Part shown: piece by piece, positions 19,484 to 48,054 of the stretch
Layout: each line of letters begins with the position of its first letter
Position numbering within the stretch: position 1 is the first letter of the stretch
Assembly: GCA_963783905.1 (NCBI GenBank)
Contig: CAWAPG010000007.1
Coordinates: 5,281 to 69,280, forward strand
Origin: an uncultured delta proteobacterium
GTDB lineage: Bacteria > Desulfobacterota > Desulfobulbia > Desulfobulbales > BM004
Direction: 5' to 3'
DNA length: 64,000 bases
Position numbers and translations under genes: made by a program
Notes under the pieces: model-generated
What the model saw: only the letters and a program-made list of their open reading frames with translations
Told to the model about the DNA's origin: nothing
Databases searched by the model: none

Positions 19484-20947
19484 ATGTCTCTTGCTTTAAA
19501 ACAACAGCTTAAACTAACCCAGCAGCTGCTGATGACACCGCAGCTGCAGCAGGCTATCAAGCTGCTGCAGCTTTCCAGGCTGGAACTGGCCGACACCATT
19601 CGCCAAGAAATCGAACAGAATCCTCTGCTGGAAGAGATCAACTCGGGTGATACCGATTATGATATCAGTCCGGATTCCCTCTCGGCCACGGAAGAAACCC
19701 CGGCTGCCTCGGAGTCGGAAAAAACCGGTGAAGTCAACATGGACAATGTGTCTTCCATGCAGGAAATAAACTGGGAGGATGATTATGCCAATTATTATGA
19801 CGCCGGCTTTTCATTCTCCCGGGAAACCCCTGAACGCAACCGATTGACCCAGATTGACTTTTTCACCAAGGAAACCAATCTCCAGTCTCATCTTCAATGG
19901 CAGATGTCCAACGCCGAGCTGAGCGAAGAGCTCGAGGACGCCTGCCTGTTCGTCATCGGCAACTTGAATCATAACGGCTTTCTCGAGGTAAACCTTGAAG
20001 ACATCACCAGAGAAATCGGCTGTAATGAAGATACAGCCAGAAAGGCGATTACCATCATTCAGGATATGGATCCGCCCGGAGTCGCAGCCACCAATGTCCA
20101 GGAATCATTGGTGCTGCAATTAAAACGGCTTGATCTCGAAAATTCCCTGGCCGCGGAAATAATCAAGGATCATCTGCACAGCCTGGAGCTGAAAAACTAC
20201 GGTGCCATTGCCAAGGCCACCAAGAAACCCATAAAGGAGGTCCTGGCGGCGATAGATATTATTACCGGCCTCAATCCCTTTCCCGGCGAGCAATATGCTG
20301 AACGTGACATACACTATATCATTCCGGATGTCTTTGTTCACAAGGTCGGGGATGAATACCTCATAGTTTTAAACGATGAGGGGCTGCCCCGTTTAAAAGT
20401 TTCTTCCGCCTATGAACAGATTGTTGAAGGAGACACGAACGCTTCTGCAGAGACCAAGGCCTACATCAAAGAAAAACTTCGCGATGCGGTCTGGCTCATC
20501 AAAAGCATGCAGCAACGGCAGCGCACCATATACAAGGTTGTGGAAAGTTTGCTTAAATTCCAGAAAGACTTTTTTGAAAAGGGGGTGCAGCATTTGAAAC
20601 CCCTGGTGCTGCGCGATGTGGCGGAAGACATAAGCATGCACGAATCAACGGTCAGCCGCGTGACCACCAACAAGTACATGCATACCCCGCAGGGTATTTA
20701 TGAGCTCAAATATTTCTTTTCCACTGCCATTCCCCAGCAGAACGGAGACGCCCTTGCGGCGGAGAGCATCAGGCAGCGCATTAAGAACATGATTAAAAAT
20801 GAAAACCCGGAAAAACCGCTGACCGACAACGCCATTTCCAAAATCCTGATTCAGGAAAATATCAAGGTCGCCCGCCGGACGGTGGCCAAATACCGGGAGC
20901 AGCTCGGAATCCTGCCGGTCAAGCACAGGCGCCAGCCAAAGATGTAG
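19484..20947 (+). CDS. rpoN: RNA polymerase sigma-54 factor
   Basis: N-terminal Gln/Leu-rich region I (LKQQLKLTQQLLMTPQLQQAIKLLQLS). RpoN box ARRTVAKYR near the C-terminus. Confidence 0.95.
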   Translation: MSLALKQQLKLTQQLLMTPQLQQAIKLLQLSRLELADTIRQEIEQNPLLEEINSGDTDYDISPDSLSATEETPAASESEKTGEVNMDNVSSMQEINWEDDYANYYDAGFSFSRETPERNRLTQIDFFTKETNLQSHLQWQMSNAELSEELEDACLFVIGNLNHNGFLEVNLEDITREIGCNEDTARKAITIIQDMDPPGVAATNVQESLVLQLKRLDLENSLAAEIIKDHLHSLELKNYGAIAKATKKPIKEVLAAIDIITGLNPFPGEQYAERDIHYIIPDVFVHKVGDEYLIVLNDEGLPRLKVSSAYEQIVEGDTNASAETKAYIKEKLRDAVWLIKSMQQRQRTIYKVVESLLKFQKDFFEKGVQHLKPLVLRDVAEDISMHESTVSRVTTNKYMHTPQGIYELKYFFSTAIPQQNGDALAAESIRQRIKNMIKNENPEKPLTDNAISKILIQENIKVARRTVAKYREQLGILPVKHRRQPKM

Positions 20948-33997: not shown

Positions 33998-34009
33998 GTT
34001 GATAGACAA

Positions 34010-34041
34010 GGGATTCAGAGATTTTCTGAGTCCCTTTTTTG
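34010..34041 (+). terminator. Rho-independent terminator after the tRNA
   Basis: GGGATTCAGAG-attt-TCTGAGTCCC hairpin followed by TTTTTT. Confidence 0.7.
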
Positions 34042-34175
34042 TGGCATGATACCGGCTGAACAAAATATTGTTTTTCAGAAACCGTATCCCATGTATTATA
34101 ACGGTAATATCACGGCCTAATAGAGGTTATGCCAATACAAACCGGGCAACAAGTTTACGCTGAGCAGGCAGGGCA

Positions 34176-34736
34176 ATGGAAAACAAACCACAATTAACCA
34201 TCCAGACCGGAATATTGGTTGTTTTTTTCTTCATTGTTTCCTTTATCTTTACGACTCCTGTTTATGCGGGTGATGATATCGAACTCGCCGGAGATATAAT
34301 GCGAATATTGCTTCCATTGACTGCAGGCGGCATGACCCTCTATCGTAATGACCGGCAAGGCCTGGTGCAATTTTCCAAATCTTTTCTAACAACAGAGGTT
34401 GCCACGGTTGCCTTGAAATATACTGTTGATACGGACCGCCCCAACGGCGGTTCACACTCTTTCCCCTCAGGCCATACATCCACCGCATTTTCAGGAGCTT
34501 CATTTTTGCAGCGCCGTTATGGGTGGAAATATGGCATCCCGGCCTATGTTGCGGCATCATTCGTCGGCTGGAGCAGATTGGAATCGGAAAACCATTATAT
34601 GAAGGATGTTTTAGCTGGTGCCGTCATAGGGATAATAAGCACCTATATTTTTACTGATGCATATCAAAAAGATGTGGTGGTAACCCCAATTGCTGAGAGC
34701 GGAACCTATGGCCTGCTGCTTAACGCAAAATTCTGA
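34176..34736 (+). CDS. PAP2-family (type 2 phosphatidic acid phosphatase-like) membrane/secreted phosphatase
   Basis: KxxxxxxRP (KYTVDTDRP), PSGH (SFPSGHTSTAF) and SRxxxxxHxxxD (SRLESENHYMKDV) acid-phosphatase motifs. Confidence 0.8.
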   Translation: MENKPQLTIQTGILVVFFFIVSFIFTTPVYAGDDIELAGDIMRILLPLTAGGMTLYRNDRQGLVQFSKSFLTTEVATVALKYTVDTDRPNGGSHSFPSGHTSTAFSGASFLQRRYGWKYGIPAYVAASFVGWSRLESENHYMKDVLAGAVIGIISTYIFTDAYQKDVVVTPIAESGTYGLLLNAKF

Positions 34737-34841
34737 AATCCGGTGAAAAATTATCACCCTAATATCCTCCGGCTGCAAAAAACTTTCCGCCTTTGATTTT
34801 CCGTCCCGCCCGGTTCGGTGGAACAGAAAAAACCGGGTCTC

Positions 34842-34874
34842 AAAAAAATAGGGTGCCCTGTAACGGGCACCCTA
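34842..34874 (-). terminator. Strong hairpin terminator downstream of the cytochrome gene
   Basis: 10-bp perfect stem TAGGGTGCCC / GGGCACCCTA with a 6-nt loop. On the minus strand it is followed by T7. Confidence 0.7.
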
Positions 34875-34902
34875 TTATCTACCGGATTTTTTCCTGCCGG
34901 TT

Positions 34903-37484
34903 TTACCAGCGCTCGGATCCGTGGCAGGCAATACTTGAACAGGTACCGTTGCTGTAACTGCCTACCCTGGTCGTACCGCCGCCGACTGTCGCAGCCGGAT
35001 CCAGTTCGAAACCCGAGGTTTCCAGATTGCTGAAATGACCATTGCCCAGGGTGTCGGTGTTGTGGCAGACCGTACAACTAAACCCTTCACCACCAACATG
35101 CTTGGAATGCCTGCCGGATGAATAGCTGTTGTACTGGGAAGAGCCTGAGCTATGGCAGGAAGTACACTGGGTATCGACTGCTATGATGCCGCTCCACCAG
35201 TCCGGGGTGGTCTGGCCGCCATGACATTTGACGCTGGAGCAGGTGCCGTCCAGATTGTCGGTGGCCGGGCCGCTCTTGGCATCAAAGGTATCCGGGAAAC
35301 CGAGATCAACCTGAGAATTATGCGCCGCCCCCAGATGACAAATCGTACAGTCTCCCCCTACTGAAGCCAGTGCAGTATGTACAGCATGGGCTCCGGCGGT
35401 ATCGGGATAGCTGGTGCCGGATGGTGGCTGGCCGTGACACAGGGTGCAGTCACTGTAGTCGGGACCGGTAGCGGAACCGGTATCCTGGGGCAGCACATCG
35501 GCAATGGCCTGCACCTCGCCCGGGGTCAAATTGCTGAGCATACCCATACCGCCGAGATTGCTGTCGATCGCCGTCTGGATTTCAGCCGCACTACGGCCCG
35601 GCTTGGCGGTTGTTTCCAGCGGTCCGTGGCAGCTGGAACAGTTGGTGCCGTACAGGGCATTACCGTCCGGCGGCAGGGTCGGATCGACCACCGGGGCCGT
35701 CGGCAGTGCATCGGCAATGGCCTGCACCTCGTCCGGGGTCAAGGCACTGAGCATGCCCATACCGCCGCGGTTGCTGTCAATCGCCGCCTGGATTTCAGCC
35801 GCACTACGGCCCGGCTTGGCGGTTGTGTCCAGCAGTCCGTGGCAGCTGGAACAGTTGGTGCCGTACAGGGCAATACCGTCCGGCGGCAGGGTCGGATCGA
35901 CCACCGGGGCCGTCGGCAGTGCATCGGCAATGGCCTGCACCTCGTCCGGGGTCAAGGCACTGAGCATGCCCATACCGCCGCGGTTGCTGTCGATCGCCGC
36001 CTGGATTTCAGCCGCACTACGGCCCGGCTTGGCGGTTGTGTCCAGCAGTCCGTGGCAGCTGGAACAGTTGGTGCCGTACAGGGCAATACCGTCCGGCGGC
36101 AGGGTCGGATCGACCACCGGGGCTGGCGGCAGTGCATCGGCAATGGCCTGCACCTCGCCAGGGGTCAAGGCACTGAGCATGCCCATACCGCCGCGGTTGC
36201 TGTCGATCGCCGCCTGGATTTCAGCCGCACTACGGCCCGGCTTGGCGGTTGTGTCCAGCAGTCCGTGGCAGCTGGAGCAGTTGGTGACATACAGGGCAAT
36301 ACCATCCGGCGGCAGGGTCGGATCGGGGTTGGAGTCGGGGTTGGAGTCGGGGTTGGGACAGGCATACCAGGAGCAGGTGTCTGGGCCGACGGCAATACTT
36401 CGGCTATGGCTGCAACCTCACCCGGGGTCAAAGTATTGAACATCCCCATGCCCCCGTAATTATTGTCAATAGCTGTCTGGATATCAGCGGCGCTGCTTCC
36501 CGGAATTTCGGTGGCGTCAAGGATGCCGTGACAGGCAGAACAGTTATCATGATAGAGGGTCATTCCATCATAGGAATCTGACAGCGGTACCCGCTGGCTG
36601 TAAGAATTTTTAACCATGGCAGCACCGTTTCCCTTAACATTCTGGACCGCCTGGTCGACCATGGCCTGATTGAAGGTGCCGTTGTTCTCCATGCCCTCCA
36701 GGGTGCTGATAACAATAGTTTGCTGCTGTAGTACTACGGCACGGATAAAATCCTGCAGAATAGGCGGACCGGTCATATCCGGATCGTCGGCCAAAGCCGC
36801 TCTAATAGCTGCAAACTCCTCGGGATTCAGCAGATTTTCCATGGCGTTGAGCATGGTGCTGAAAATCTGAAAGTGTTCTGAATCATTGAGTCCGTTCATG
36901 CCGGCCTGGTAGTCACCGGTTACTTCCATATAAGCATTGGCTGCCATGGAGGCCTGGAGAAGCCTAAGATCCTGATCGGTAACTTCATTTGTCTTGTCGG
37001 CCAGGCCGGCCATGGGATCGTCATACAGATCAGAAACAGCAATACTGGTGAAACCGGCATCATTAAATGCAGCGATAAGTTCTGTCGGTGTCATCCCGTT
37101 TGCCAGCAGGGTGGTCAGGGGAGAAACCACCACGGGGCCGACATCATCAGCTGCAACCATACGCCGCAGCATTCCCTGGTAAGGGGCGCCGCCGTGCAGT
37201 CCCGTATTGGGAACCAGTTCGACTATAGAGCCCGGCGTTAAAGGCTGATCAAAACCAAAATTTCCTGCTTCATCCGAAGGTGATGACTGCTGCAGAACAA
37301 TACCGGTGTCACTTTCTATTTCCTGAAAAATCCCCTCGACTATATATGGATCAACGGCTATACCCTGCGTGACGGTACCGCCTGTTGACAAATCCATTGT
37401 CGAGTCGCTGCCGCCGCCACAGGCGGCAAAAAGCACCAGGGGCAGAAGCAAGAATAACCATTTGCGCATAAATTTATGAACCAC
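34903..37484 (-). pseudogene. Multihaem c-type cytochrome lipoprotein (~860-905 aa if continuous), split into two ORFs by a single frame change in the Pro/Thr linker
   Basis: Lipoprotein signal MRKWLFLLLPLVLFAACGGG. A GTG at 37484 sits 6 nt after a GGAGG, and the next ATG is at 37469. Order: a ~330-aa non-haem domain, one diverged and four near-identical monohaem modules (NCS[AS]CHG...GGMGM), then a C-terminal domain with 4 CXXCH plus 2 CX4CH (CSSVKCH, CSSIACH). The downstream ORF (34903..36186) starts mid-repeat. Its frame stays open upstream to 36417 with no plausible start codon. Confidence 0.7.
35473..36324 (-). repeat. Tandem array of 4 x 213 bp (71 aa), each encoding one monohaem cytochrome c module
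   Basis: Antisense track ORFs recur at exactly 213-bp spacing (35526, 35739, 35952, 36165). Copies 35686-35898 and 35899-36111 differ at only a handful of positions by eye. Repeat unit: DPTLPPDGxALYGTNCSSCHGLLDTTAKPGRSAAEIQAAIDSNRGGMGMLSALTPxEVQAIADALPxAPVV. Confidence 0.9.
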
Positions 37485-37641
37485 AATAAACCTCCATGTT
37501 GAATTTATCCATAGCACTGCCTGAAAAATACATGTTGATAATAAAAAAAGTAATTGTAATTTCGTGCAGTTATACCGGTTGATCAATAACCGCAATACCA
37601 CTTTACATGCAGCTGATATCAATAGTAATGATTATTAGACA

Positions 37642-37656
37642 GCAATCCATGTGCCA
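37642..37656 (-). promoter_or_regulatory. Sigma-54 (-24/-12) promoter for the cytochrome lipoprotein gene
   Basis: The minus strand reads TGGCAC-ATGGA-TTGCT, a perfect match to TGGCAC-N5-TTGCW. It lies ~150 nt upstream of the lipoprotein start. Confidence 0.75.
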
Positions 37657-38177
37657 TACTGCAATTTCAACAACATTAGAAAAATCATCTTCCTGATATT
37701 ATTTATAAAAATAGTTTTAATTAGGGAATAAGACCTTTCGGAAGGCGTAGATTATATTGGAGGAATTTTTTGATGGGGCAGGATTTACAGCCTCGGGTGT
37801 TAAGTCGGCTCCATTCCTTATGAACACAGGGATAACTTCTGTTTTACTCTCTCATACTTCACATTGTTTCATCCGGTTTAAAAAAGAAACAGACAAGGAG
37901 CTCAACCTGAAAAATAATCATAACTTATTGTTTTTATGTGATAAATGTTAACGGGCGGTCCTTGCCCTGCAGCTGTCGGCTCAATGTGTATGAAATTCAC
38001 TGCAGTTTGTAAAAAAAATTAAACCCGTGGGTTTCATTCAAAGAAAAACCGCTGCGAACCATTCAAATGGAAACGAGCCCGGATTTGTCCAAATACCAAA
38101 TTTATGCAAACCGGAACCAGATATTATTTGTGTCCATCTGCATGATATCTGATTCCAGTAGATTTACTTGATTTTCT

Positions 38178-38192
38178 TGGCTATAATGGTGC
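38178..38192 (+). promoter_or_regulatory. Candidate promoter for the giant activase gene: sigma-54-like TGGCTA-N5-GTGC overlapping a perfect TATAAT box
   Basis: TGGCTATAATGGTGC has the GG-N10-GC spacing. The same bases contain TATAAT, with a weak TAGATT 17 nt upstream. It lies ~218 nt upstream of the ATG at 38410. The two readings cannot be separated by eye. Confidence 0.3.
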
Positions 38193-38409
38193 TAAAGAAA
38201 ACCGCGCTTCAATTTCAGTGAAGTAAATATTAGCCCAATATACCCTTTATAATCAGGATGTTTCCTGCTGAATCCAGCAGATTGGGCCTGATAAATGATC
38301 TTGTCTGCAAACAAAAAACAAATGCTTTTCACCATGAAATATGCAACATTCCTTCTGTCATCGTTTACTGGACATTTAATGTAATTCCCTATAATTTCCT
38401 GAAAATCCC

Positions 38410-41400
38410 ATGAAATCCATTGGTATATGTGCCGGCGCCTCAACCATCTCCATGGTTGGGCTGGAACGAAACAATACGGATACAAAAATTGTTTATTCCA
38501 GATTCCAGGCCCATGACGGCAACCCGAAAAAAGTTCTGCGCCAACTGCTGGGCGAAATAGAAAATATCCGTGAATGCAGGATCGGCGTCACCGGACGCAA
38601 GTTCAGAAATATGCTTAATTTTTCCAGCATTTCCGAACCGGAGGCCGTGGAGTTGGCCGCGAACTTCATTCTGCCGGCGGATCATCCCTATAGAGTGGTG
38701 ATCAGTGCCGGCGGGGAAACTACCATGGTTTACCACCTGGATGACGACGGCAGGGTGAATGAAATTCACACCGGCAACAAATGCGCTTCAGGCACGGGAG
38801 AATTTTTTCTGCAGCAGCTGGGCCGTATGTCCATCACCCTGGCCGAGGTGGCTGAAATGCAGCTGCCTGAAAGGCCGTACAAAGTTTCCGGCCGTTGTTC
38901 AGTATTCTGCAAAAGCGACTGCACCCATGCCTTGAACAAGGGAGTTGCCAAAGATCGGGTGGTTGCCGGCCTGTCGGGCATGATGTCGGGCAAGGTTCTC
39001 GAACTGCTGAAAAAACTGCCCAAAGATTCCGCGATGCTGGTCGGCGGCTGTGCCGGTAATCAGGCCATGGTTCGATACCTGCTGGACGCCATACCCGACC
39101 TGTACATTCCGGAGCATGCTTTTGTTTTCGAGGCCCTGGGAGCAGCCCTCTGGGCGCTTGATAACGATGCCAGGCCTTTCCTTACCCTGGATGATATTTT
39201 TGTCAGCCGCCGGTCAGGTCTGGCGGTGCTTGAACCTCTAGCCGCGGCCCAAAAACTGGTGAATTACAAATTCCAGGAGCGCTCCACCGCCCTTGAAGGA
39301 GATGCGGTCATTCTCGGTTTGGACGTTGGTTCCACTACCACTAAAGGCGTCTTGATGCGCCGCCGTGACAAATCAATCGTTGCCGCCGAATATTTACGGA
39401 CCAACGGCGATCCTGTCGGCGCCTCCAGAAACGTCTATAAAAGCCTGGCTGAACAGTTGCAGGTGCCGGTGTCTATCGAGGGTCTGGGTGTGACCGGTTC
39501 GGGGCGGCAGATTGCCGGACTGCACGCGCTGACCGATGGGGTGATCAATGAGATTGTGGCCCATGCAACCGCAGCGGTTCATTTTGATCCGGAAGTTGAC
39601 ACCATTTTTGAGATCGGCGGCCAGGATGCAAAATACACTTATATCACGAACGGCGTACCCAGCGATTATGCCATGAACGAGGCATGCAGCGCCGGTACCG
39701 GATCTTTTCTGGAAGAGGCGGCCAGGGAGAGCCTCGGACTGGATGTGACCGAAATCGGTTCCTCCGCCTTGCGGGCCCAGGAGCCTCCCAACTTCAGTGA
39801 TCAGTGCGCCGCCTTTATCGGTTCGGACATCAAGCGGGCGGTGCAGGAAAATGTGGCTTTGGAGGATATTGTGGCCGGCCTGGTTTACTCCATAGGCATG
39901 AACTATAACAACCGGGTCAAGGGCAACCGGCCCGTGGGTAAAAAAGTATTTGTCCAGGGCGGTGTCTGTTATAATAAGGCCGTACCCGCCGCCTTGGCAG
40001 CACTCACCGGAAAAAACGTAATAGTGCCCTCGGAAGCGGGACTCATGGGAGCCTTTGGCGTGGCCCTGGAAGTGGAACGGCGGATGGAGCAGGGACTGCT
40101 CCAGTCGCAGCAGTACGATCTGCGTGAATTGATGGAACGCCGGGTTGAATACGGCGAATCCTTTCAATGCGGCGGGGGCAAAGAGTGCGACCGCGGTTGT
40201 GAAATCTCCCGCATCAGGATCAACGGCAAGGTCTATCCTTTCGGCGGCATCTGCAACCGCTATGACAATCTTATCCACAACCGCAAGGTGAAAACTGTTG
40301 ACCATGACCTGGTGATCAAGAGGGAGCGCCGCGTTTTCCGCGACCTGGCCCCTGCCGATCCTACCGATATCAGGCCCACGGTAGGCATGAACCGCTCCCT
40401 GCTGCTCAACACCTATTTTCCGTTTTTCAACTGTTTTTTTGCGGAACTGGGGTTCCGCCTCACCCTGCCCGACAGGCAGGATCCCAGAGGCGTCGACCAG
40501 CAGGGCTCCGCGTTCTGCTACCCGGTGGAAATAGCGCATAACTATGCAGCTGCGCTGCTGGCGGAAAAACCCGATTTCATCTTTTTGCCCCAGGTGCGGA
40601 GCCTGCCGGTTAACGAACCGGACAAGCTCGCCTGCACCTGTGTATTGGTTCAGGGTGAGCCGTATTATCTGCGCACCGCCTTTCCACCCTTTGCAACCAA
40701 TGACAATGTTATTACCGGGGTATTGACATTTTCGAGTGACCACAGCAAAGACCGGCAAGCATTCCGACATATTGCCATGCAGTTGGGCGCCGACCCTGCC
40801 AAGATGGACGCGGCCCTGCAGGCTGCCGCCGCCGAGCAGAAAAAATTCACCGATGACATCCGGGAAATCGGGCGGCAGGGGCTGGCCGCCATCACCCGGG
40901 ACCCCGAGAAATTCGGGGTGGTTCTCTTTGGCCGGCCGTACAACAGTTTTACCGCTGTAGCCAATAAGGGTATTCCGGCCAAGTTCGCCAGCCGCGACAT
41001 CACCATAATACCTTTTGACATGCTTCCCTTCTGGAACGAAAAGCTGGCCCCTGACAACAATATGTATTGGGCCATGGGACAGCTCATTCTCAAGGGCGCC
41101 CGCTACGTGGAGAAACATCCGCAGCTGTACGGCGCCTACATCACCAATTTTTCCTGCGGTCCGGACTCTTTTATTGTCAGTTTTTTCCGGGATATCATGG
41201 GCCGCAAGCCTTCGCTGACCCTGGAACTTGACAGTCATACAGCAGACGCCGGACTTGAAACCAGAATTGAGGCGTTTCTTGACATCGTCCGCTACTATCG
41301 GGAAATCCAGAAAAACAGACCGCGGACATATTTCCCCGGAAAGGATTTCCGACCGGCAGTGATTGCAGAACAAAACGGCACTACTGGAGTGCGGACCTCG

Positions 41401-43754: not shown

Positions 43755-44885
43755 ATGACAAAACGTATTATTATCATTGTCCTGTTTTTGCTCCTTGTGG
43801 TCGGTGTTATTGCCGGCATCAAATATCTGCAGATACGCACCTTGATCGATCAGGGCGGCGGTGCTGCCCAACCCCCGGCAACGGTCACCAGCGCCGTGGC
43901 GGAAAACCAGAAATGGGAAAAGACCTTCAGGACAGTGGGTTCCCTTGAAGCGGTCCAGGGAGTCATGGTGGCACCAGAACTATCGGGTAAAGTAACAAAA
44001 ATAGCCTTTAACGCAGGGGACATGGTCGAAGCCGGCGACCTGCTGGTGCAGCTGGACATCAATACGGAGAAGGCTCAGCTGCGGGCGGCTGAGGCATCGG
44101 CGTCTCTGGCCCAGATGAATCTGCAGAGGACTTCCGAGGTCCTTGCCGATAACGGGGTCTCCCGCTCCGAATATGACAAGGCCGAAGCCTCCTACAAGGA
44201 AGCCGCGGCCCAGGTCGATACCATAAAGGCCGCCATTGCCAAAAAAACGATCAGGGCGCCGTTTGCCGGGCGCCTCGGCATCCGGCTGGTAAATCTGGGG
44301 CAGATCATCAGCGAAGGCGAATCCATTGTATCCCTGCAGAGCCTTGATCCTCTCTTCGTCAATTTTCAACTGCCGCAGCAGCAGCTGAACCGTGTCAAAG
44401 TAGACTATCCGGTGCGGCTGACCTCCAATGCCGTACCCGACGGAATAATGACCGGCACCATCACCACCATCAGTCCCGAGATTGACAGCGTTACCAGGAA
44501 CTTCCACCTCCAGGCCACGGTGGAGAACAGCCAGGAAGTTCTGCGCCCGGGCATGTTTGTCGAGGCCGCCGTTGTGCTGCCCGATGAGGAGGAAATCCTG
44601 GCCATACCTTCCACGGCCATTCTCTATGCGCCTTACAGCGACTCGGTTTTCGTCATCGAAGAAAGCAAGGCGAAAGAGGGGGAAAAAGCGGGCAAGGTTC
44701 TGCGCCAGCAGTTTGTCCGGCTCGGGGAGAGACGCGGTGATTATGTGGCGGTGACCTCCGGGCTTAAGGAAGGTGAAACCGTGGTCAGCACCGGGGTTTT
44801 TAAATTTCGCAACGGCCAGTCAGCCGTGATCGACAACAGCTTGAACCCTGAATTTAAACTGGAGCCACATCCCGTTAACAAATGA
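43755..44885 (+). CDS. RND efflux periplasmic adaptor (membrane fusion protein)
   Basis: N-terminal TM anchor, coiled-coil hairpin (QLRAAEASASLAQMNLQR...YKEAAAQVDTIKAAIAKKTIRAPFAGRLG). 4-nt overlap with the permease gene. Confidence 0.85.
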   Translation: MTKRIIIIVLFLLLVVGVIAGIKYLQIRTLIDQGGGAAQPPATVTSAVAENQKWEKTFRTVGSLEAVQGVMVAPELSGKVTKIAFNAGDMVEAGDLLVQLDINTEKAQLRAAEASASLAQMNLQRTSEVLADNGVSRSEYDKAEASYKEAAAQVDTIKAAIAKKTIRAPFAGRLGIRLVNLGQIISEGESIVSLQSLDPLFVNFQLPQQQLNRVKVDYPVRLTSNAVPDGIMTGTITTISPEIDSVTRNFHLQATVENSQEVLRPGMFVEAAVVLPDEEEILAIPSTAILYAPYSDSVFVIEESKAKEGEKAGKVLRQQFVRLGERRGDYVAVTSGLKEGETVVSTGVFKFRNGQSAVIDNSLNPEFKLEPHPVNK

Positions 44886-47800
44886 AATTTACCGACCTCT
44901 TCATCCGCCGGCCGGTCCTGGCCATGGTGGTCAGTCTGGTCATCATCATCGCCGGGCTGCAGGCCATCCGCTCCCTCAATGTCCGCCAGTATCCCCGCAG
45001 CGAGAATGCGACGGTGACGGTCACCACCGTCTATGTCGGCGCCAGCGCCGACCTGGTGCGCGGCTTTATCACCACCCCCCTGGAACGGGCCATCGCCGCG
45101 GCCGACGGCATCGACTACATCGAATCGCAGAGCACCCTGGGGCTCTCCACCATCAATGTCCGCCTGAAACTCAACTACGACGCGACCAAGGCCCTGGCCG
45201 AGATCAGCTCCAAGGTGGACCAGGTGCGCAACGATCTGCCGCCGGAGGCCGAGGTGCCGATCATCAACATCGAGTCGGCGGACAGCCGGTTCGCCTCGGC
45301 CTATCTCAGCTTCACCTCCGATATTCTCAAACAGAACGAGATCACCGATTATCTGGTCCGCGTCGTCCAGCCCCGGCTTTCCGCCCTGGCCGGCGTGCAG
45401 CGGGCCGATATCCTCGGGGCCCGCACCTTTGCCATGCGCATCTGGCTCAAACCCGAACGGATGGCCGCCTATCAACATCAGTCCGGTCGCAGGTGCGCCA
45501 GGCCCTGGCCGCCAACAACTTTCTTTCCGCCGTCGGCCAGACCAAGGGGGCGCTGATCCAGGTCAACCTCACCGCCAACACCGACCTGCGTTCGGTGCGG
45601 GAATTCAAGCAGCTGGTCATCCGGGAACAGGACGGCGCCATCGTCCGGCTCGGAGGATATCGCCGAGGTGGTCCTGGGGGCCGAGGATTATAACACCGAG
45701 GTCCATTTTTCCGGTCAGACCGCGGTATTCATGGGTATCTGGCCGCTGCCCAACGCCAACTCCCTGGATGTCATCAGCCGGGTGCGGACCGAGATGGCAT
45801 CCATCCAGAAGGAGCTGCCCACCGGCATGCAGGCCCGGGTCGCCTACGACGCCACCGATTATATCAAGAATGCCATCCACGAGGTGCTCAAGACCCTGGG
45901 CGACACCCTGCTCATCGTCGTGGTCATCATCTTTCTCTTTCTCGGCTCCTTCCGCTCGGTGTTCATCCCGGTGGTGGCCATTCCCATGTCGCTGATCGGC
46001 GCCGTCTTTCTGATGCAGGTCTTCGGCTTCACCATCAACCTGCTGACCCTGCTGGCCATCGTCCTTTCCGTCGGGCTGGTGGTGGATGACGCCATCGTCG
46101 TGGTGGAGAACGTCGAGCGGCATCTGCGGCTCGGCGAATCGCCGCTCGATGCAGCTCTGCTGGGCGCCCGCGAACTGGTCGGTCCGATCATCGCCATGAC
46201 CATCACCCTGGCCGCGGTCTATGCCCCCATCGGGCTGCAGGGCGGGCTCACCGGCTCGCTTTTCCGCGAATTCGCCTTTACCCTGGCCGGCGCCGTGACC
46301 ATTTCCGGGGTGGTGGCCCTGACCCTGTCGCCGATGATGTCCGCCAACCTGCTGAAGCCGGGGCCTGGCGGAACACGGCCTGGCCGGCAGAATCTCCCGG
46401 GATTTCGACCGGTTCAGGGCGAACCTACGGCCGCTGGCTGGATTTCACCCTCCGCACCCGGCCGGCGGTCTACCTGGTCTGGATCGTGCTCAGTCTTGCG
46501 GTCATCCCCATGTTCACCATGTCGGCCAAGGAACTTGCCCCCACCGAGGACCAGGGGGTCATTTTCGGCATCGTCGATGCCGCGGCCAATTCCACCCTCG
46601 ACCAGACCAGCATCTACGCCGCGGCGGCCAACCGCGCCTTTCTCAGCGTGCCGGAGACACAGTTCACCTTCCAGGTCACCTTCCCGTCCTCCGGTTTCGG
46701 CGGCATGGTGGTCAAACCCTGGGACGAGCGGCAGCGCACCATTTTCCAGATCCTGCCCGAGGTGCAGCAGCAAACTGCACGCCATTCCCGGCATCCGGAT
46801 GTTTCCGGTAACCCCGCCGGCCCTGCCGGGCGGCGGCCAGTTTCCGGTGGAATTCGTTCTTGCCTCCACCGCCGATGAGGACCAGATCCTGGACCTGGCC
46901 AAACAGATCCAGCAGAAGGCCATGGACAGCGGCATGTTCGCCTTCCCGCCGATCATCGACGTCAAGATCGACCAGCCCCAGGCCGAGATTGATATCGACC
47001 GGGACAAGGTGGCCGATCTCGGACCTCAACCTGGAGCAGGTCGGGGGCGATCTCGGTTCCATGCTGGGCGGCAATTACGTCAACCGCTTCAACATTGCCG
47101 GCCGCAGCTACAAGGTTATCCCCCAGATCCAGCGGGTTGACCGGCTCAACCCGGATCAGCTGAAGGATATCTATGTCACCGGCCCGGCCGGTCAGCTGGT
47201 GCCGCTCAGCACCGTGGCCACCCTGCACAGAACCACCGTGCCCCGCTCGCTGAACCGCTTCCAGCAGCTCAATGCCGTCAAGATCAGCGGCGTGGCGATC
47301 CGCCCCCTGGACGAGGCCCTGCGATTTCTGGAGGACGAGGCCGCCAAGATCCTGCCCAAGGGCTATGTCATCGACTATACCGGCGAATCGCGCCAGCTGC
47401 GCAGCGAAGGCAACACGTTCCTGCCGACCTTCGCCCTGGCGGTTGTCCTGATCTTTCTGGTGCTGGCCGCCCAGTTCAACAGCTTCCGCGACCCCTTCGT
47501 CATCCTGGCCGGCTCGGTGCCGCTGGCCATGTTCGGCGCCCTGATCTTCACCTTCCTGAAGATGCCGGACCCCAATATTCCCTTCTGGACCCACGGGCTG
47601 GACCACCACCCTCAACATCTACTCCCAGGTCGGGCTGGTGACCCTGGTCGGGCTGGTCTCGAAAAACGGCATCCTGATCGTCGAGTTCGCCAACAAGCTG
47701 CAGGAAAGGGGCAAATCCAAGCTCGAGGCGGTCCGGGAGGCGGCCATGAACACGGCTGCGACCGATCCTGATGACCAGCGCCGCCACCATTGCCGGCCAT

Positions 47801-47989
47801 TTTCCCCTGACCCTGGTCACCGGCGCCGGCGCCGCGGCCAGAAATTCCATCGGTCTGGTGCTGGTCGGGGGTATGGCCATCGGCACCTTCTTCACCCTGT
47901 TCGTGGTGCCGTCGATCTATATGCTGGTGGCCCGGGAGCATACCGCCGATTCCTCCCCGGAAGGATCAGCCGCTGCTCAGGATTCTTGA
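44882..47989 (+). pseudogene. RND (AcrB/MdtB-like) efflux permease broken into about 10 in-frame segments by frame changes
   Basis: Canonical N-terminus MKFTDLFIRRPVLAMVVSLVIIIAG and C-terminus PILMTSAATIAGHFPL...VVPSIYML. Colinear RND sequence can be followed only by hopping frames near 45470, 45490, 45651, 46368, 46428, 46775, 47022, 47596 and 47752. Confidence 0.8.
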
Positions 47990-48054
47990 GAAAAAGCGGT
48001 AATAACCACCCTCTCTCCAACACCGGAACATCAGAACATTGGCAGACCGCATTA

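What the first reader, a model, noticed from the sequence alone, without database searches (positions are those of the whole stretch)
34903..37484. Modular cytochrome c lipoprotein with five monohaem modules plus a Geobacter-type CX4CH...CXXCH domain
When reconstructed across the frame change, the protein has these parts in order:
- a lipoprotein signal peptide;
- a ~330-aa non-haem domain;
- one diverged and four near-identical class-I-like monohaem modules (CXXCH with a GGMGM Met-ligand candidate);
- a C-terminal region with CTLCH, CTICH, CSSVKCH, CTSCH, CTVCH and CSSIACH.

That totals 9 CXXCH and 2 CX4CH sites. The paired CX4CH...CXXCH spacing is the motif originally noted in Geobacter sulfurreducens multihaem proteins. 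I do not recognise a chain of identical small cytochrome modules tethered to such a domain, under sigma-54 control, as a characterised protein.
Basis: partly seen in the sequence, partly recalled or inferred. Interest (0 to 1): 0.6.

Follow-up and report, generated by a model that had tools for sequence, protein, structure and literature searches.

The report
PgcA-like tethered-haem lipoprotein cytochrome
This minus-strand gene encodes an 11-haem "haems-on-a-string" surface lipoprotein of the kind first described as PgcA in Geobacter, so it is a new member of a known class; in this assembly one missing base splits it.

Summary
One minus-strand gene (34903-37484) encodes, across a 1-nt frame break, these parts in order:
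- a lipoprotein signal (Cys22);
- a ~280-aa haem-free domain;
- five monohaem class-I modules;
- a C-terminal domain with six haem sites.
That totals 9 CXXCH and 2 CX4CH. The C-terminal domain scores 51.9 bits on TIGR01904 (cut-off 27).

It is not an unrecognised kind of protein. The modules match crystal structures of PgcA domains I/II from Geobacter sulfurreducens (E 4e-15), with the same His-to-Met spacing. PgcA is the founding "haem-tethered redox string": a lipoprotein with monohaem domains on Pro/Thr linkers that reduces Fe(III)/Mn(IV) oxides. More than 90 intact proteins share this exact three-part architecture, with 0-9 modules.

Points specific to this gene:
- The hexahaem end is a tandem duplication of the trihaem cap that ends Geobacteraceae PgcA-like proteins.
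- An exact sigma-54 promoter is conserved in five orthologous loci, with a one-mismatch version in a sixth. Desulfuromonadales relatives carry GEMM-I riboswitches instead.
- One module was recently triplicated.

The frame break is one lost G at CCGGATCC. Reads could not be checked, so assembly error and real pseudogene remain open.

The parts
37642..37656 (-). Sigma-54 (-24/-12) promoter TGGCACATGGATTGC, about 160 nt upstream of the start codon
   Evidence: Exact match to TGGCAC-N5-TTGC, with 0.19 expected per window. Identical in L036. It is the only conserved island in the otherwise unalignable upstream region of L038. Exact again upstream of the same-order orthologues L043 and L045, and one mismatch in L044. 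rpoN is present in the genome.
37485..37641 (-). 5' untranslated leader with GGAGG ribosome-binding site at 37495-37491; no riboswitch
   Evidence: Sequence read. Rfam scan at E<=1 found nothing in 34000-38600. Relatives L037, L039 and L008 carry GEMM-I-type riboswitches at this position.
37419..37484 (-). Start codon GTG 37484, Sec/lipoprotein signal peptide and lipobox (LFAA-C), Cys22 followed by GGG
   Evidence: Translations. The lipobox Cys falls at residue 22 in most of 120 homologues.
36579..37418 (-). Haem-free N-terminal domain (~280 aa): beta-sandwich followed by a helical bundle
   Evidence: AlphaFold2 model with pLDDT 92 and pTM 0.88; strands at residues 19-99, helices at 101-277. 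No PDB neighbour at E<0.1 and no Pfam model. The profile finds 497 representative clusters, many without haem motifs. It occupies the position of PgcA's 'secretion domain', but sequence homology to it is inconclusive.
36384..36578 (-). Monohaem module 1 (CSACH ... GGMGM), the diverged copy
   Evidence: Pfam PF13442 stretch. It is 67% nt identical to the other modules and 91.5% to module 1 of the nearest orthologue.
36325..36383 (-). Pro/Thr-rich linker ending in (PT)6, built on a 12-nt repeat
   Evidence: (PT)x linkers are the hallmark of PgcA (PMC11520253).
36323..36324 (-). Frame break: one base missing (ACC CCG AT CCG; orthologue has ACC CCG GAT CCG)
   Evidence: All homologues examined are uninterrupted.
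35473..36324 (-). Four tandem 213-nt units encoding monohaem modules 2-5 (CSSCH ... GGMGM) with Pro-rich linkers (ALPxAPVVDPTLPPDG)
   Evidence: Tandem repeat of period 213, 3.9 copies. Unit borders are 36112-36324, 35899-36111, 35686-35898 and 35473-35685. Identities: W3-W4 99.5%, W2-W3 96%, W5 about 87%. phmmer matches to PgcA domain I (8qj6, E 4e-15) and domain II (8qjg, E 1e-13).
34906..35472 (-). C-terminal hexahaem domain: two trihaem units [CXXCH..HxxH..CXXCH..H..CX4CH] with six conserved distal His
   Evidence: TIGR01904 at 51.9 bits, cut-off 27. Six haem sites and His31, 34, 53, 124 and 148 are invariant in 28 homologues; a sixth His in the HSKH motif (about position 127) is conserved with shifted spacing. 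Each half matches the C-terminal trihaem cap of Geobacteraceae and betaproteobacterial PgcA-like proteins: hhalign 98.5% (E 2.5e-15) and 95.1% (E 3e-8).
34903..34905 (-). Stop codon
34837..34876 (-). Intrinsic terminator: 12-bp stem (7 G-C pairs), 6-nt loop, T-run
   Evidence: It is the only terminator-like site found in 34600-38450, so the gene is monocistronic.

Best explanation
The locus is a single monocistronic gene: sigma-54 promoter, leader, CDS 37484->34903, terminator. It encodes a PgcA-type 'haem-tethered redox string' with 11 c-type haems.

**Shown here**
- A lipoprotein signal with Cys22.
- A well-folded haem-free N-terminal domain.
- Five His/Met monohaem domains homologous to the crystallised PgcA domains I/II, joined by Pro/Thr-rich linkers.
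- A C-terminal hexahaem domain, predicted all bis-His, that is a tandem duplicate of the trihaem cap ending Geobacteraceae PgcA-like proteins.
- The same three-part architecture in many intact proteins, with variable module number.

**Inferred by analogy with PgcA**
- After Sec export, lipidation and haem attachment, the protein is placed on or released from the outer surface.
- Its loosely tethered monohaem beads collect electrons from envelope or outer-membrane cytochromes. They pass them by tethered diffusion to the compact, lower-potential hexahaem end.
- The hexahaem end touches and reduces insoluble acceptors such as Fe(III)/Mn(IV) oxides, or a partner cell.
- Module number, changed by unequal recombination between repeats, would set the reach.

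**Regulation and state of the gene**
- In this Desulfobulbales-type lineage expression depends on sigma-54 and an unidentified enhancer-binding protein. Geobacter and Desulfuromonadales relatives use a cyclic-dinucleotide riboswitch instead.
- In this assembly one missing base at the first linker/module junction splits the frame. I put roughly 55-60% on an assembly error and 35-40% on a real, recent inactivation.
- If the break is real, only the N-domain plus module 1 would be made as an exported protein.
For: **Identity of the modules**
- phmmer against the PDB matches PgcA domain I (8qj6, E 4.1e-15) and domain II (8qjg, E 1.1e-13).
- The His-to-Met distance of 27 residues equals His274-Met301 of PgcA (PMC11520253).
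- Pfam PF13442 matches five times.

**Linkers and lipobox**
- Seen directly.

**C-terminal domain**
- TIGR01904 scores 51.9 bits against a cut-off of 27.
- Haem sites and distal His are invariant across 28 homologues.
- Both halves match the trihaem cap of PgcA-like proteins.

**Link to bona fide PgcA**
- The Pelotalea chapellei protein L008 has the PgcA N-domain (PDB 9i0d, E 6e-29), six such modules, PT linkers, the trihaem cap and a GEMM-I riboswitch.

**Shared regulation with pgcA inside this family**
- There are two tandem GEMM-I riboswitches upstream of the Geopsychrobacter member.
- There is a c-di-GMP-I-GGC riboswitch upstream of P0017.
- pgcA itself is GEMM-controlled (PMC5732950, PMC7962754).

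**Sigma-54 promoter**
-.

**Architecture is widespread and intact elsewhere**
-.

**Genome context**
- The genome is rich in multihaem cytochromes: 34 ORFs have at least 3 CXXCH.
- The transcription unit has an intact promoter and terminator.

**PgcA function and mechanism**
- PMC5732950, PMC10570954 and PMC11520253.
Against: - There is no expression, haem-attachment or localisation data for this protein or any member of its subfamily.
- Homology of the N-terminal domain to PgcA's secretion domain is weak. hhalign gave 79% with six Geobacteraceae sequences but 3.7% (E 0.012) with 44 sequences. hmmsearch against the PDB found nothing.
- PgcA's own mineral-contacting domain III (8QK0) was not detectably related to the C-terminal domain.
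- No outer-membrane conduit or other conserved partner lies next to the gene in any genome examined.
- The gene is absent from the 12 other same-genus and 6 same-family genomes searched.
- The gene is frame-shifted as assembled.
- The AlphaFold2 model of the hexahaem domain was poor (pLDDT 58), so its haem packing is not modelled.
Confidence: 0.72

Rival explanations
1. The gene is a genuine pseudogene in this organism. A real 1-nt deletion truncates the protein after module 1, so the tethered chain and hexahaem cap are no longer made. This rival concerns the gene's state, not its kind.
For: - The frame break is in the assembled sequence.
- The downstream frame has no start codon or signal peptide of its own.
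- The gene is dispensable in the lineage: it is absent from 18 same-genus and same-family genomes.
Against: - There is only one lesion in 2.6 kb and no stop codon in the restored frame.
- The promoter, ribosome-binding site and terminator are intact.
- Modules W3 and W4 differ by a single synonymous base.
This suggests the assembly carries indel errors.
- The break sits at the edge of a near-identical tandem array, where polishing is hardest.
Confidence: 0.38
2. The protein stays in the periplasm, anchored to the inner leaflet of the outer membrane. There it works as a periplasmic electron shuttle or wire between inner-membrane quinol oxidases and outer-membrane conduits, rather than outside the cell.
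For: - PgcA trapped in the periplasm by a lipobox mutation can replace the periplasmic cytochromes PpcA-E in G. sulfurreducens (cited in PMC11520253 and PMC10570954).
- No dedicated surface-export gene lies next to this gene.
- A stretched chain of five tethered modules would span a periplasm-sized gap.
Against: - Native PgcA is extracellular, and its lipobox is needed to get it there (PMC5732950, PMC10570954).
- The lipobox Cys followed by GGG is near-universally conserved in this family.
- The N-domain family also carries non-redox cargo such as beta-propellers. That fits a surface-display module better than a periplasmic redox role.
Confidence: 0.2
3. The string works in the opposite direction. 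It takes electrons into the cell from Fe(II), a cathode-like mineral or a syntrophic partner, with the His/Met modules serving as higher-potential acceptors.
For: - His/Met haems usually have higher potentials than bis-His haems. PgcA domains I/II are His/Met (PMC10570954).
- The same module and trihaem cap occur in betaproteobacterial MAGs (L001-L009), a group with many iron oxidisers.
Against: - The only characterised member acts as a metal-oxide reductase.
- Its His/Met domains are unusually low-potential and hand electrons to the bis-His domain (PMC10570954, PMC11520253).
- Most family members come from Desulfuromonadales and Desulfobulbales anaerobes.
Confidence: 0.1
4. The frame change is programmed. 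The full-length protein would be made by -1 ribosomal slippage of tRNA-Pro on C CCC G, or expression would switch on and off by slipped-strand mutation in the linker repeat.
For: - A -1 slip on ACC-CCG gives exactly the orthologous ...TPDPTL... junction.
- The site lies inside a 12-nt repeat.
Against: - None of more than 150 homologues carries the shift.
- There is no X XXY YYZ heptamer, and I identified no stimulatory structure.
- The runs are only C4 and G1-2, far shorter than known phase-variable tracts.
Confidence: 0.04

Closest known systems
PgcA (GSU1761) of Geobacter sulfurreducens, the trihaem 'haem-tethered redox string' (PDB 8QJ6, 8QJG, 8QK0; N-domain 9I0D/9I0E)
   Same: - A lipoprotein with a lipobox Cys and a haem-free N-terminal domain.
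- Small (~65-aa) His/Met class-I monohaem domains, about 50% identical to PgcA domains I/II, with identical His-Met spacing.
- Pro/Thr-rich flexible linkers.
- A bis-His haem region at the C-terminal end.
- A monocistronic gene with a long regulatory leader. Family members in Geopsychrobacter and another Desulfuromonadales genome even share the GEMM-I riboswitch.
   Different: - 11 haems instead of 3.
- Five His/Met modules instead of two.
- The C-terminus is a compact hexahaem TIGR01904 domain, not a single bis-His haem. It has no detectable similarity to 8QK0.
- The N-domain is larger (about 280 versus 195 aa), with an all-helical second half, and is only doubtfully related in sequence.
- Control is by a sigma-54 promoter rather than a riboswitch.
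- Most linkers are 'APVVDPTLPPDG' rather than pure (PT)x.
PgcA-like strings of Geobacteraceae, e.g. Pelotalea chapellei c-type cytochrome (L008:2117-4462; P0275)
   Same: The order of parts is the same: lipobox, N-domain, a run of monohaem modules on PT linkers, and a C-terminal CXXCH/CXXCH/CXnCH cap ending ...CHGxExW. The cap is homologous to each half of this protein's C-terminal domain (hhalign 98.5% and 95.1%).
   Different: - One trihaem cap instead of two.
- A true PgcA-type N-domain (9i0d, E 6e-29).
- Long PT/PV linkers between all modules.
- A GEMM-I riboswitch upstream.
TIGR01904 (GSu_C4xC__C2xCH) CxxxxCH/CxxCH domain cytochromes of Geobacter sulfurreducens
   Same: The C-terminal domain passes the curated model (51.9 bits against 27) and has the paired CX4CH...CXXCH spacing.
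   Different: TIGR01904 only names a motif-bearing domain. No function or structure is attached to it. It says nothing about the tethered monohaem chain or the N-domain.
OmcF / cytochrome c6-like monohaem cytochromes (structural relatives of PgcA domains)
   Same: The small class-I fold with CXXCH in the first helix and a distal Met.
   Different: Those are single-domain, higher-potential proteins. They are not chained on linkers or fused to a multihaem cap.

Membership tests
PgcA-type haem-tethered redox strings | Sec signal peptide with lipobox Cys (lipoprotein) | tested here: met
   The signal reads M-VHKFMRKWLFLLLPLVLFAA-C22-GGG from GTG 37484. The Cys aligns with the lipobox Cys of homologues, mostly at residue 22.
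PgcA-type haem-tethered redox strings | Two or more monohaem class-I c-type domains homologous to PgcA domains I/II, with His/Met ligation | tested here: met
   phmmer matches 8qj6 (E 4.1e-15) and 8qjg (E 1.1e-13). There are five modules. Met lies 27 residues after the haem His in all five, as for His274/Met301 in PgcA (PMC11520253).
PgcA-type haem-tethered redox strings | Haem domains separated by low-complexity Pro/Thr-rich flexible linkers | tested here: met
   A (PT)6 linker joins modules 1 and 2. Pro-rich ALPxAPVVDPTLPPDG joins the others. Flexibility itself was not measured.
PgcA-type haem-tethered redox strings | Haem-free N-terminal 'secretion' domain homologous to PgcA residues 58-252 (PDB 9I0D) | tested here: inconclusive
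   A haem-free domain sits in the same position. hhalign to PgcA-type N-domains gave 79% (E 1.6e-5) with 6 sequences, 22% with 9i0d placed first, and 3.7% (E 0.012) with 44 sequences; a reversed control gave E 0.34. hmmsearch against the PDB found nothing. 9I0D did not appear among the Foldseek matches; whether it is in that library I could not tell.
PgcA-type haem-tethered redox strings | Bis-His, acceptor-facing haem domain at the C-terminal end | tested here: inconclusive
   There are six haem sites with six conserved candidate distal His. The domain is homologous to the C-terminal cap of Geobacteraceae PgcA-like proteins. No similarity to PgcA domain III (8QK0) was detected. Ligation and mineral contact are untested.
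PgcA-type haem-tethered redox strings | Extracellular location and role in Fe(III)/Mn(IV) oxide reduction | not testable with these tools
   This needs fractionation and genetics. Known only for G. sulfurreducens PgcA (PMC5732950).
PgcA-type haem-tethered redox strings | GEMM-I (cyclic dinucleotide) riboswitch in the leader (a feature of pgcA, not strictly defining) | tested here: not met
   There is no Rfam match at E<=1 in 34000-38600. The riboswitch is present upstream of family members L037 (two copies), L039 and L008.
TIGR01904 CxxxxCH/CxxCH domain c-type cytochrome | Score at or above the curated cut-off of the NCBIfam model | tested here: met
   The score is 51.9 bits against a cut-off of 27, in three stretches. 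A six-frame search of the genome gives 33.5 bits at this locus.
Sigma-54-dependent transcription unit | -24 GG / -12 GC element matching TGGCAC-N5-TTGC at a suitable distance upstream | tested here: met
   An exact match lies at 37642-37656(-), with 0.19 expected per window. Exact matches occur in orthologous loci L036, L038, L043 and L045, and a one-mismatch match in L044.
Sigma-54-dependent transcription unit | rpoN present in the genome | tested here: met
   TIGR02395 scores 435 bits (cut-off 277) at C7:24794-26212, which is window 19514-20932.
Sigma-54-dependent transcription unit | Cognate enhancer-binding protein and upstream activator sites | not tested
   No enhancer-binding protein gene is adjacent. 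The one repeat search of the upstream region was rejected for a format error and not repeated.
Di-haem cytochrome c peroxidase (NF040606) | Score at or above the curated cut-off | tested here: not met
   The score is 50.7 bits against a cut-off of 150. The matches are only to the repeated class-I modules.

The most novel reading that the evidence does not exclude
This subfamily combines the large helical N-domain, n His/Met beads and a duplicated trihaem cap. It could be a distinct, uncharacterised long-reach extracellular reductase of Desulfobulbales-type sulfur bacteria. In that reading it is switched on by a sigma-54 enhancer-binding protein in response to an environmental cue rather than by cyclic dinucleotides. 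Its reach would be tuned by rapid gain and loss of modules, and the linker-junction frameshift would be a real on/off variant in the population.
Probability: 0.1. Interest if true: 0.55.

Novelty: new member of a known kind. Interest (0 to 1): 0.33.

Why it matters
- Tethered-haem strings are a recently recognised way to move electrons over tens of nanometres with few haems. Only the 3-haem PgcA has been studied.
- This locus and its relatives show that the design scales: 0-9 beads plus a one- or two-unit trihaem cap.
- The design also occurs outside Geobacter, in Desulfobulbales-type genomes.
- The same protein family has been rewired between riboswitch control and sigma-54 control.
- That gives concrete constructs and promoters to test. 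It does not open a new category.

Tried and rejected
- **Reads.** Error versus real mutation stays open.
- **Genome-wide frameshift estimate.** I counted same-strand overlapping open frames. This gave 350 candidates and could not separate ordinary adjacent genes from broken ones, so I dropped it.
- **Fetching G. sulfurreducens PgcA.** A 101-genome family search also missed it. I used the Pelotalea PgcA-like protein and the PDB chains instead.
- **N-domain fold.** Foldseek against the PDB found nothing below E 0.17, only generic CnaB/transthyretin-like sandwiches.
- **C-terminal domain fold.** The AlphaFold2 model had pLDDT 58, so I did not fold-search it.
- **PDB profile searches.** The N-domain profile found nothing. 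The trihaem-cap profile gave only a weak NrfB match.
- **Riboswitch in the window.** None found.
- **Upstream activator sites.** The inverted-repeat search failed on a format error and was not repeated.
- **Synteny in the same genus.** The neighbouring PAP2 gene is found in only 1 of 12 genomes. Absence of the cytochrome there says little about recent transfer.
- **Peroxidase, cbb3 CcoP, MoxG and DmsE readings.** All score far below their curated cut-offs.
Full report
**What is in the sequence**

The feature is one gene on the minus strand.
- ORF listing gives 36165..37622(-) and 34903..36186(-).
- Reading both frames across 36100-36480 shows the upstream frame running through PVPTPTPTPTPTP and then into out-of-frame repeat sequence. 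The other frame carries ...DPTLPPDG... and everything downstream.
- Joining the frames at the (PT) linker gives an 855-aa protein counted from ATG 37469. Counted from GTG 37484 it is 860 aa.
- GTG 37484 is the better start. GGAGG lies at 37495-37491 with a 6-nt spacer, and this start puts the lipobox Cys at residue 22, as in most homologues.
- Tandem Repeats Finder reports a 213-nt unit, 3.9 copies and 96% matches at 35489-36325, plus a 12-nt repeat under the PT linker.
- An exact TGGCAC-N5-TTGC lies at 37642-37656(-), with 0.19 expected per window.
- A 12-bp-stem terminator lies 27 nt after the stop codon.
- The unit is therefore promoter, about 160-nt leader, CDS and terminator.

**Domains**

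- Pfam matches Cytochrome_CBB3 (a class-I cytochrome c family) in five stretches at 91 bits.
- NCBIfam TIGR01904 (the CxxxxCH/CxxCH domain) scores 51.9 bits against a cut-off of 27.
- All enzyme-type families (peroxidase, CcoP, MoxG, DmsE, NrfH) score far below their cut-offs.

**Closest characterised relative**

- A sequence search of the PDB matched the modules to two 'lipoprotein cytochrome c' chains: 8qj6 (E 4e-15) and 8qjg (E 1e-13).
- These are domains I and II of PgcA from Geobacter sulfurreducens (PMC11520253).
- PgcA has these properties:
  - It is a lipoprotein with a haem-free N-terminal 'secretion' domain.
  - It carries three monohaem domains on (PT)x linkers.
  - It is extracellular and needed for Fe(III)- and Mn(IV)-oxide reduction.
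  - It was shown by SAXS and NMR to be a set of independently tumbling beads that exchange electrons by tethered diffusion.
  - Its bis-His domain III contacts the mineral.
  - Sources: PMC5732950, PMC10570954, PMC11520253.
- In the alignment the distal ligand Met301 of PgcA lies 27 residues after His274. This corresponds to the first Met of GGMGM, also 27 residues after the haem His, in all five modules here.
- The same papers state that PgcA homologues with 3-14 haems and mixed mono- and multihaem domains exist. The kind of protein is therefore already described.

**The family**

- A search with the joined protein found 157 relatives. BLAST dissection of the 120 listed shows that more than 90 share the whole plan: lipobox, about 270-aa N-domain, 0-9 monohaem modules, and a roughly 190-aa C-terminal domain.
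- Named sources include Geopsychrobacter electrodiphilus, Geothermobacter hydrogeniphilus, Desulfuromonas carbonis and Desulfobulbaceae MAGs. Many are annotated only as 'CxxxxCH/CxxCH domain-containing protein'.
- All are uninterrupted.
- The nearest relative (P0001, 77% identity, a metagenome contig) has four modules rather than five.

**C-terminal domain**

- An alignment of 28 diverse C-terminal domains has all six haem sites invariant.
- His31, 34, 53, 124 and 148 are also invariant, and a sixth His in the HSKH motif is conserved. That is enough for six bis-His haems.
- The pattern is two copies of CXXCH..HxxH..CXXCH..H..CX4CH.
- PgcA-like proteins of Geobacteraceae and of betaproteobacterial MAGs end in a single such trihaem unit (...SCxNSCHGxExW).
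- A profile comparison matches that unit to the second half of the domain here at 98.5% (E 2.5e-15) and to the first half at 95.1% (E 3e-8).
- The hexahaem end is therefore a duplicated cap.
- Neither the cap nor the domain shows similarity to PgcA domain III or to any solved structure beyond a weak NrfB match.
- The AlphaFold2 model without haems was poor (pLDDT 58).

**N-terminal domain**

- With a 24-sequence alignment AlphaFold2 gives a confident model (pLDDT 92, pTM 0.88). It has a beta-sandwich at residues 19-99 and a helical bundle at residues 101-277.
- Foldseek against the PDB finds nothing significant.
- PgcA's own N-domain is in the PDB as 9I0D/9I0E. The Pelotalea chapellei PgcA-like protein matches it at E 6e-29.
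- My profile-profile tests between that domain family and this one were unstable:
  - 79% probability with six sequences;
  - 22% and then 3.7% (E 0.012) with more sequences;
  - E 0.34 for a reversed control.
- hmmsearch of the N-domain profile against the PDB found nothing.
- The alignments always pair the sandwich and the (S/T)PLTT motif. I call this homology inconclusive.
- An exhaustive profile search found 497 representative clusters with this N-domain, 158 of them at E<=1e-30. Most of the more distant ones have no haem motif and carry other cargo, such as beta-propeller repeats or a cupredoxin.
- This fits a general lipoprotein anchoring or export module.

**Regulation**

The window has no riboswitch. 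The sigma-54 element is supported by comparison:
- It is identical in the closest orthologous locus L036.
- It is the only conserved island in the otherwise unalignable upstream region of L038, whose protein is 56% identical.
- Exact TGGCAC-N5-TTGC sites lie 173 and 216 nt upstream of two further same-order orthologues. A one-mismatch site lies upstream of a third.
- An exact site is expected about 6e-4 times per 600 nt.
- rpoN is present in the genome, inside this window at 19514-20932.

By contrast:
- The Geopsychrobacter member has two tandem c-di-GMP-I (GEMM-I) riboswitches.
- Another Desulfuromonadales-type member has a c-di-GMP-I-GGC riboswitch.
- The Pelotalea PgcA-like gene has one GEMM-I riboswitch.
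- pgcA itself is driven by a GEMM riboswitch that responds to cyclic AMP-GMP (PMC5732950).

This shared control ties the family functionally to pgcA. It also shows a switch of regulatory input in the Desulfobulbales-type branch.

No conserved neighbouring genes were seen in five loci.

**Repeat history**

Pairwise DNA identities show the following:
- Module 1 pairs with module 1 of the relative (91.5%).
- The last module pairs with the relative's last (91%).
- Modules 2-4 all pair with the relative's third (92-93%).
- Modules 3 and 4 differ by one synonymous base.
- The relative's second module has no counterpart here.

So the array was remodelled by unequal recombination very recently.

**The frame break**

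- The relative reads ACC CCG GAT CCG at the linker/module junction. The window lacks one G.
- No homologue has the shift, so it is not a conserved programmed event.
- For an assembly error:
  - it is a single lesion in an otherwise clean gene with intact signals;
  - it lies at the edge of a near-identical tandem array;
  - another gene in this window shows many frame alternations (note e1-3188054).
- For a real mutation: the gene is accessory, being absent from 18 same-genus and same-family genomes and present in 4 of 42 other same-order genomes.
- I put about 55-60% on error.

**Verdict**

- The protein belongs to a described class, the PgcA-type haem-tethered redox strings, of which it is a larger, uncharacterised member.
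- The genome is rich in multihaem cytochromes: 34 ORFs with at least 3 CXXCH, including a cluster at C1:280-338 kb. This fits an extracellular electron-transfer role. Location, direction of electron flow and partners remain inferences.

Noticed in passing
window 19514-20932 (+): The genome's rpoN (sigma-54) gene lies in this same window, about 17 kb from the cytochrome gene (TIGR02395, 435 bits).
   Followed up: partly
proteins P0169-P0274: The haem-free N-terminal domain defines a family of about 500 clusters with no Pfam model. Most of the more distant members have no haem motif. Of nine such members scanned against Pfam, one carries SBBP beta-propeller repeats, one a cupredoxin domain, and seven match nothing. 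Many are roughly 800-aa or 350-aa lipoproteins.
   Followed up: partly
genome contig C1:280000-338000; C1:321815-323629: This is a dense cluster of multihaem cytochrome ORFs with 19, 14, 12, 10, 10, 7 and 5 CXXCH. The 605-aa ORF has 14 CXXCH plus 1 CX4CH, and its C-terminus is a paralogue of the hexahaem domain (phmmer E 5e-37).
   Followed up: partly
L037:7636-7851; L039:3569-3645; L008:2022-2097: GEMM-I-type riboswitches lie upstream of PgcA-like and family genes. There are two in tandem in Geopsychrobacter electrodiphilus, a c-di-GMP-I-GGC variant in another genome, and one in Pelotalea chapellei.
   Followed up: yes
L001-L009 (betaproteobacterial MAGs): The same monohaem module (up to 70% identical to PgcA domain I) and the same trihaem cap occur in betaproteobacterial MAG proteins. 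Their N-termini are different, and some begin with an extra CXXCH region.
   Followed up: no
window 44845-48048 (+): This is the RND-type gene flagged by another note. Long open stretches alternate among all three frames across about 3 kb. I saw no common sequence motif at the listed switch points. It is relevant as a sign that the assembly may contain indel errors.
   Followed up: partly
L046 and L047 (G139:C1:2072797-2074810): A complete same-order genome has two adjacent genes (open frames of 464 and 508 aa). Each matches only the first ~170 residues of the N-domain (sandwich plus first helices).
   Followed up: no
window 35200-36600: The module array is 61-67% G+C against about 50% for the genome and 51% for the N-domain part of the same gene. 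This probably reflects Pro/Ala/Gly-rich coding, but a foreign origin of the repeats was not excluded.
   Followed up: no
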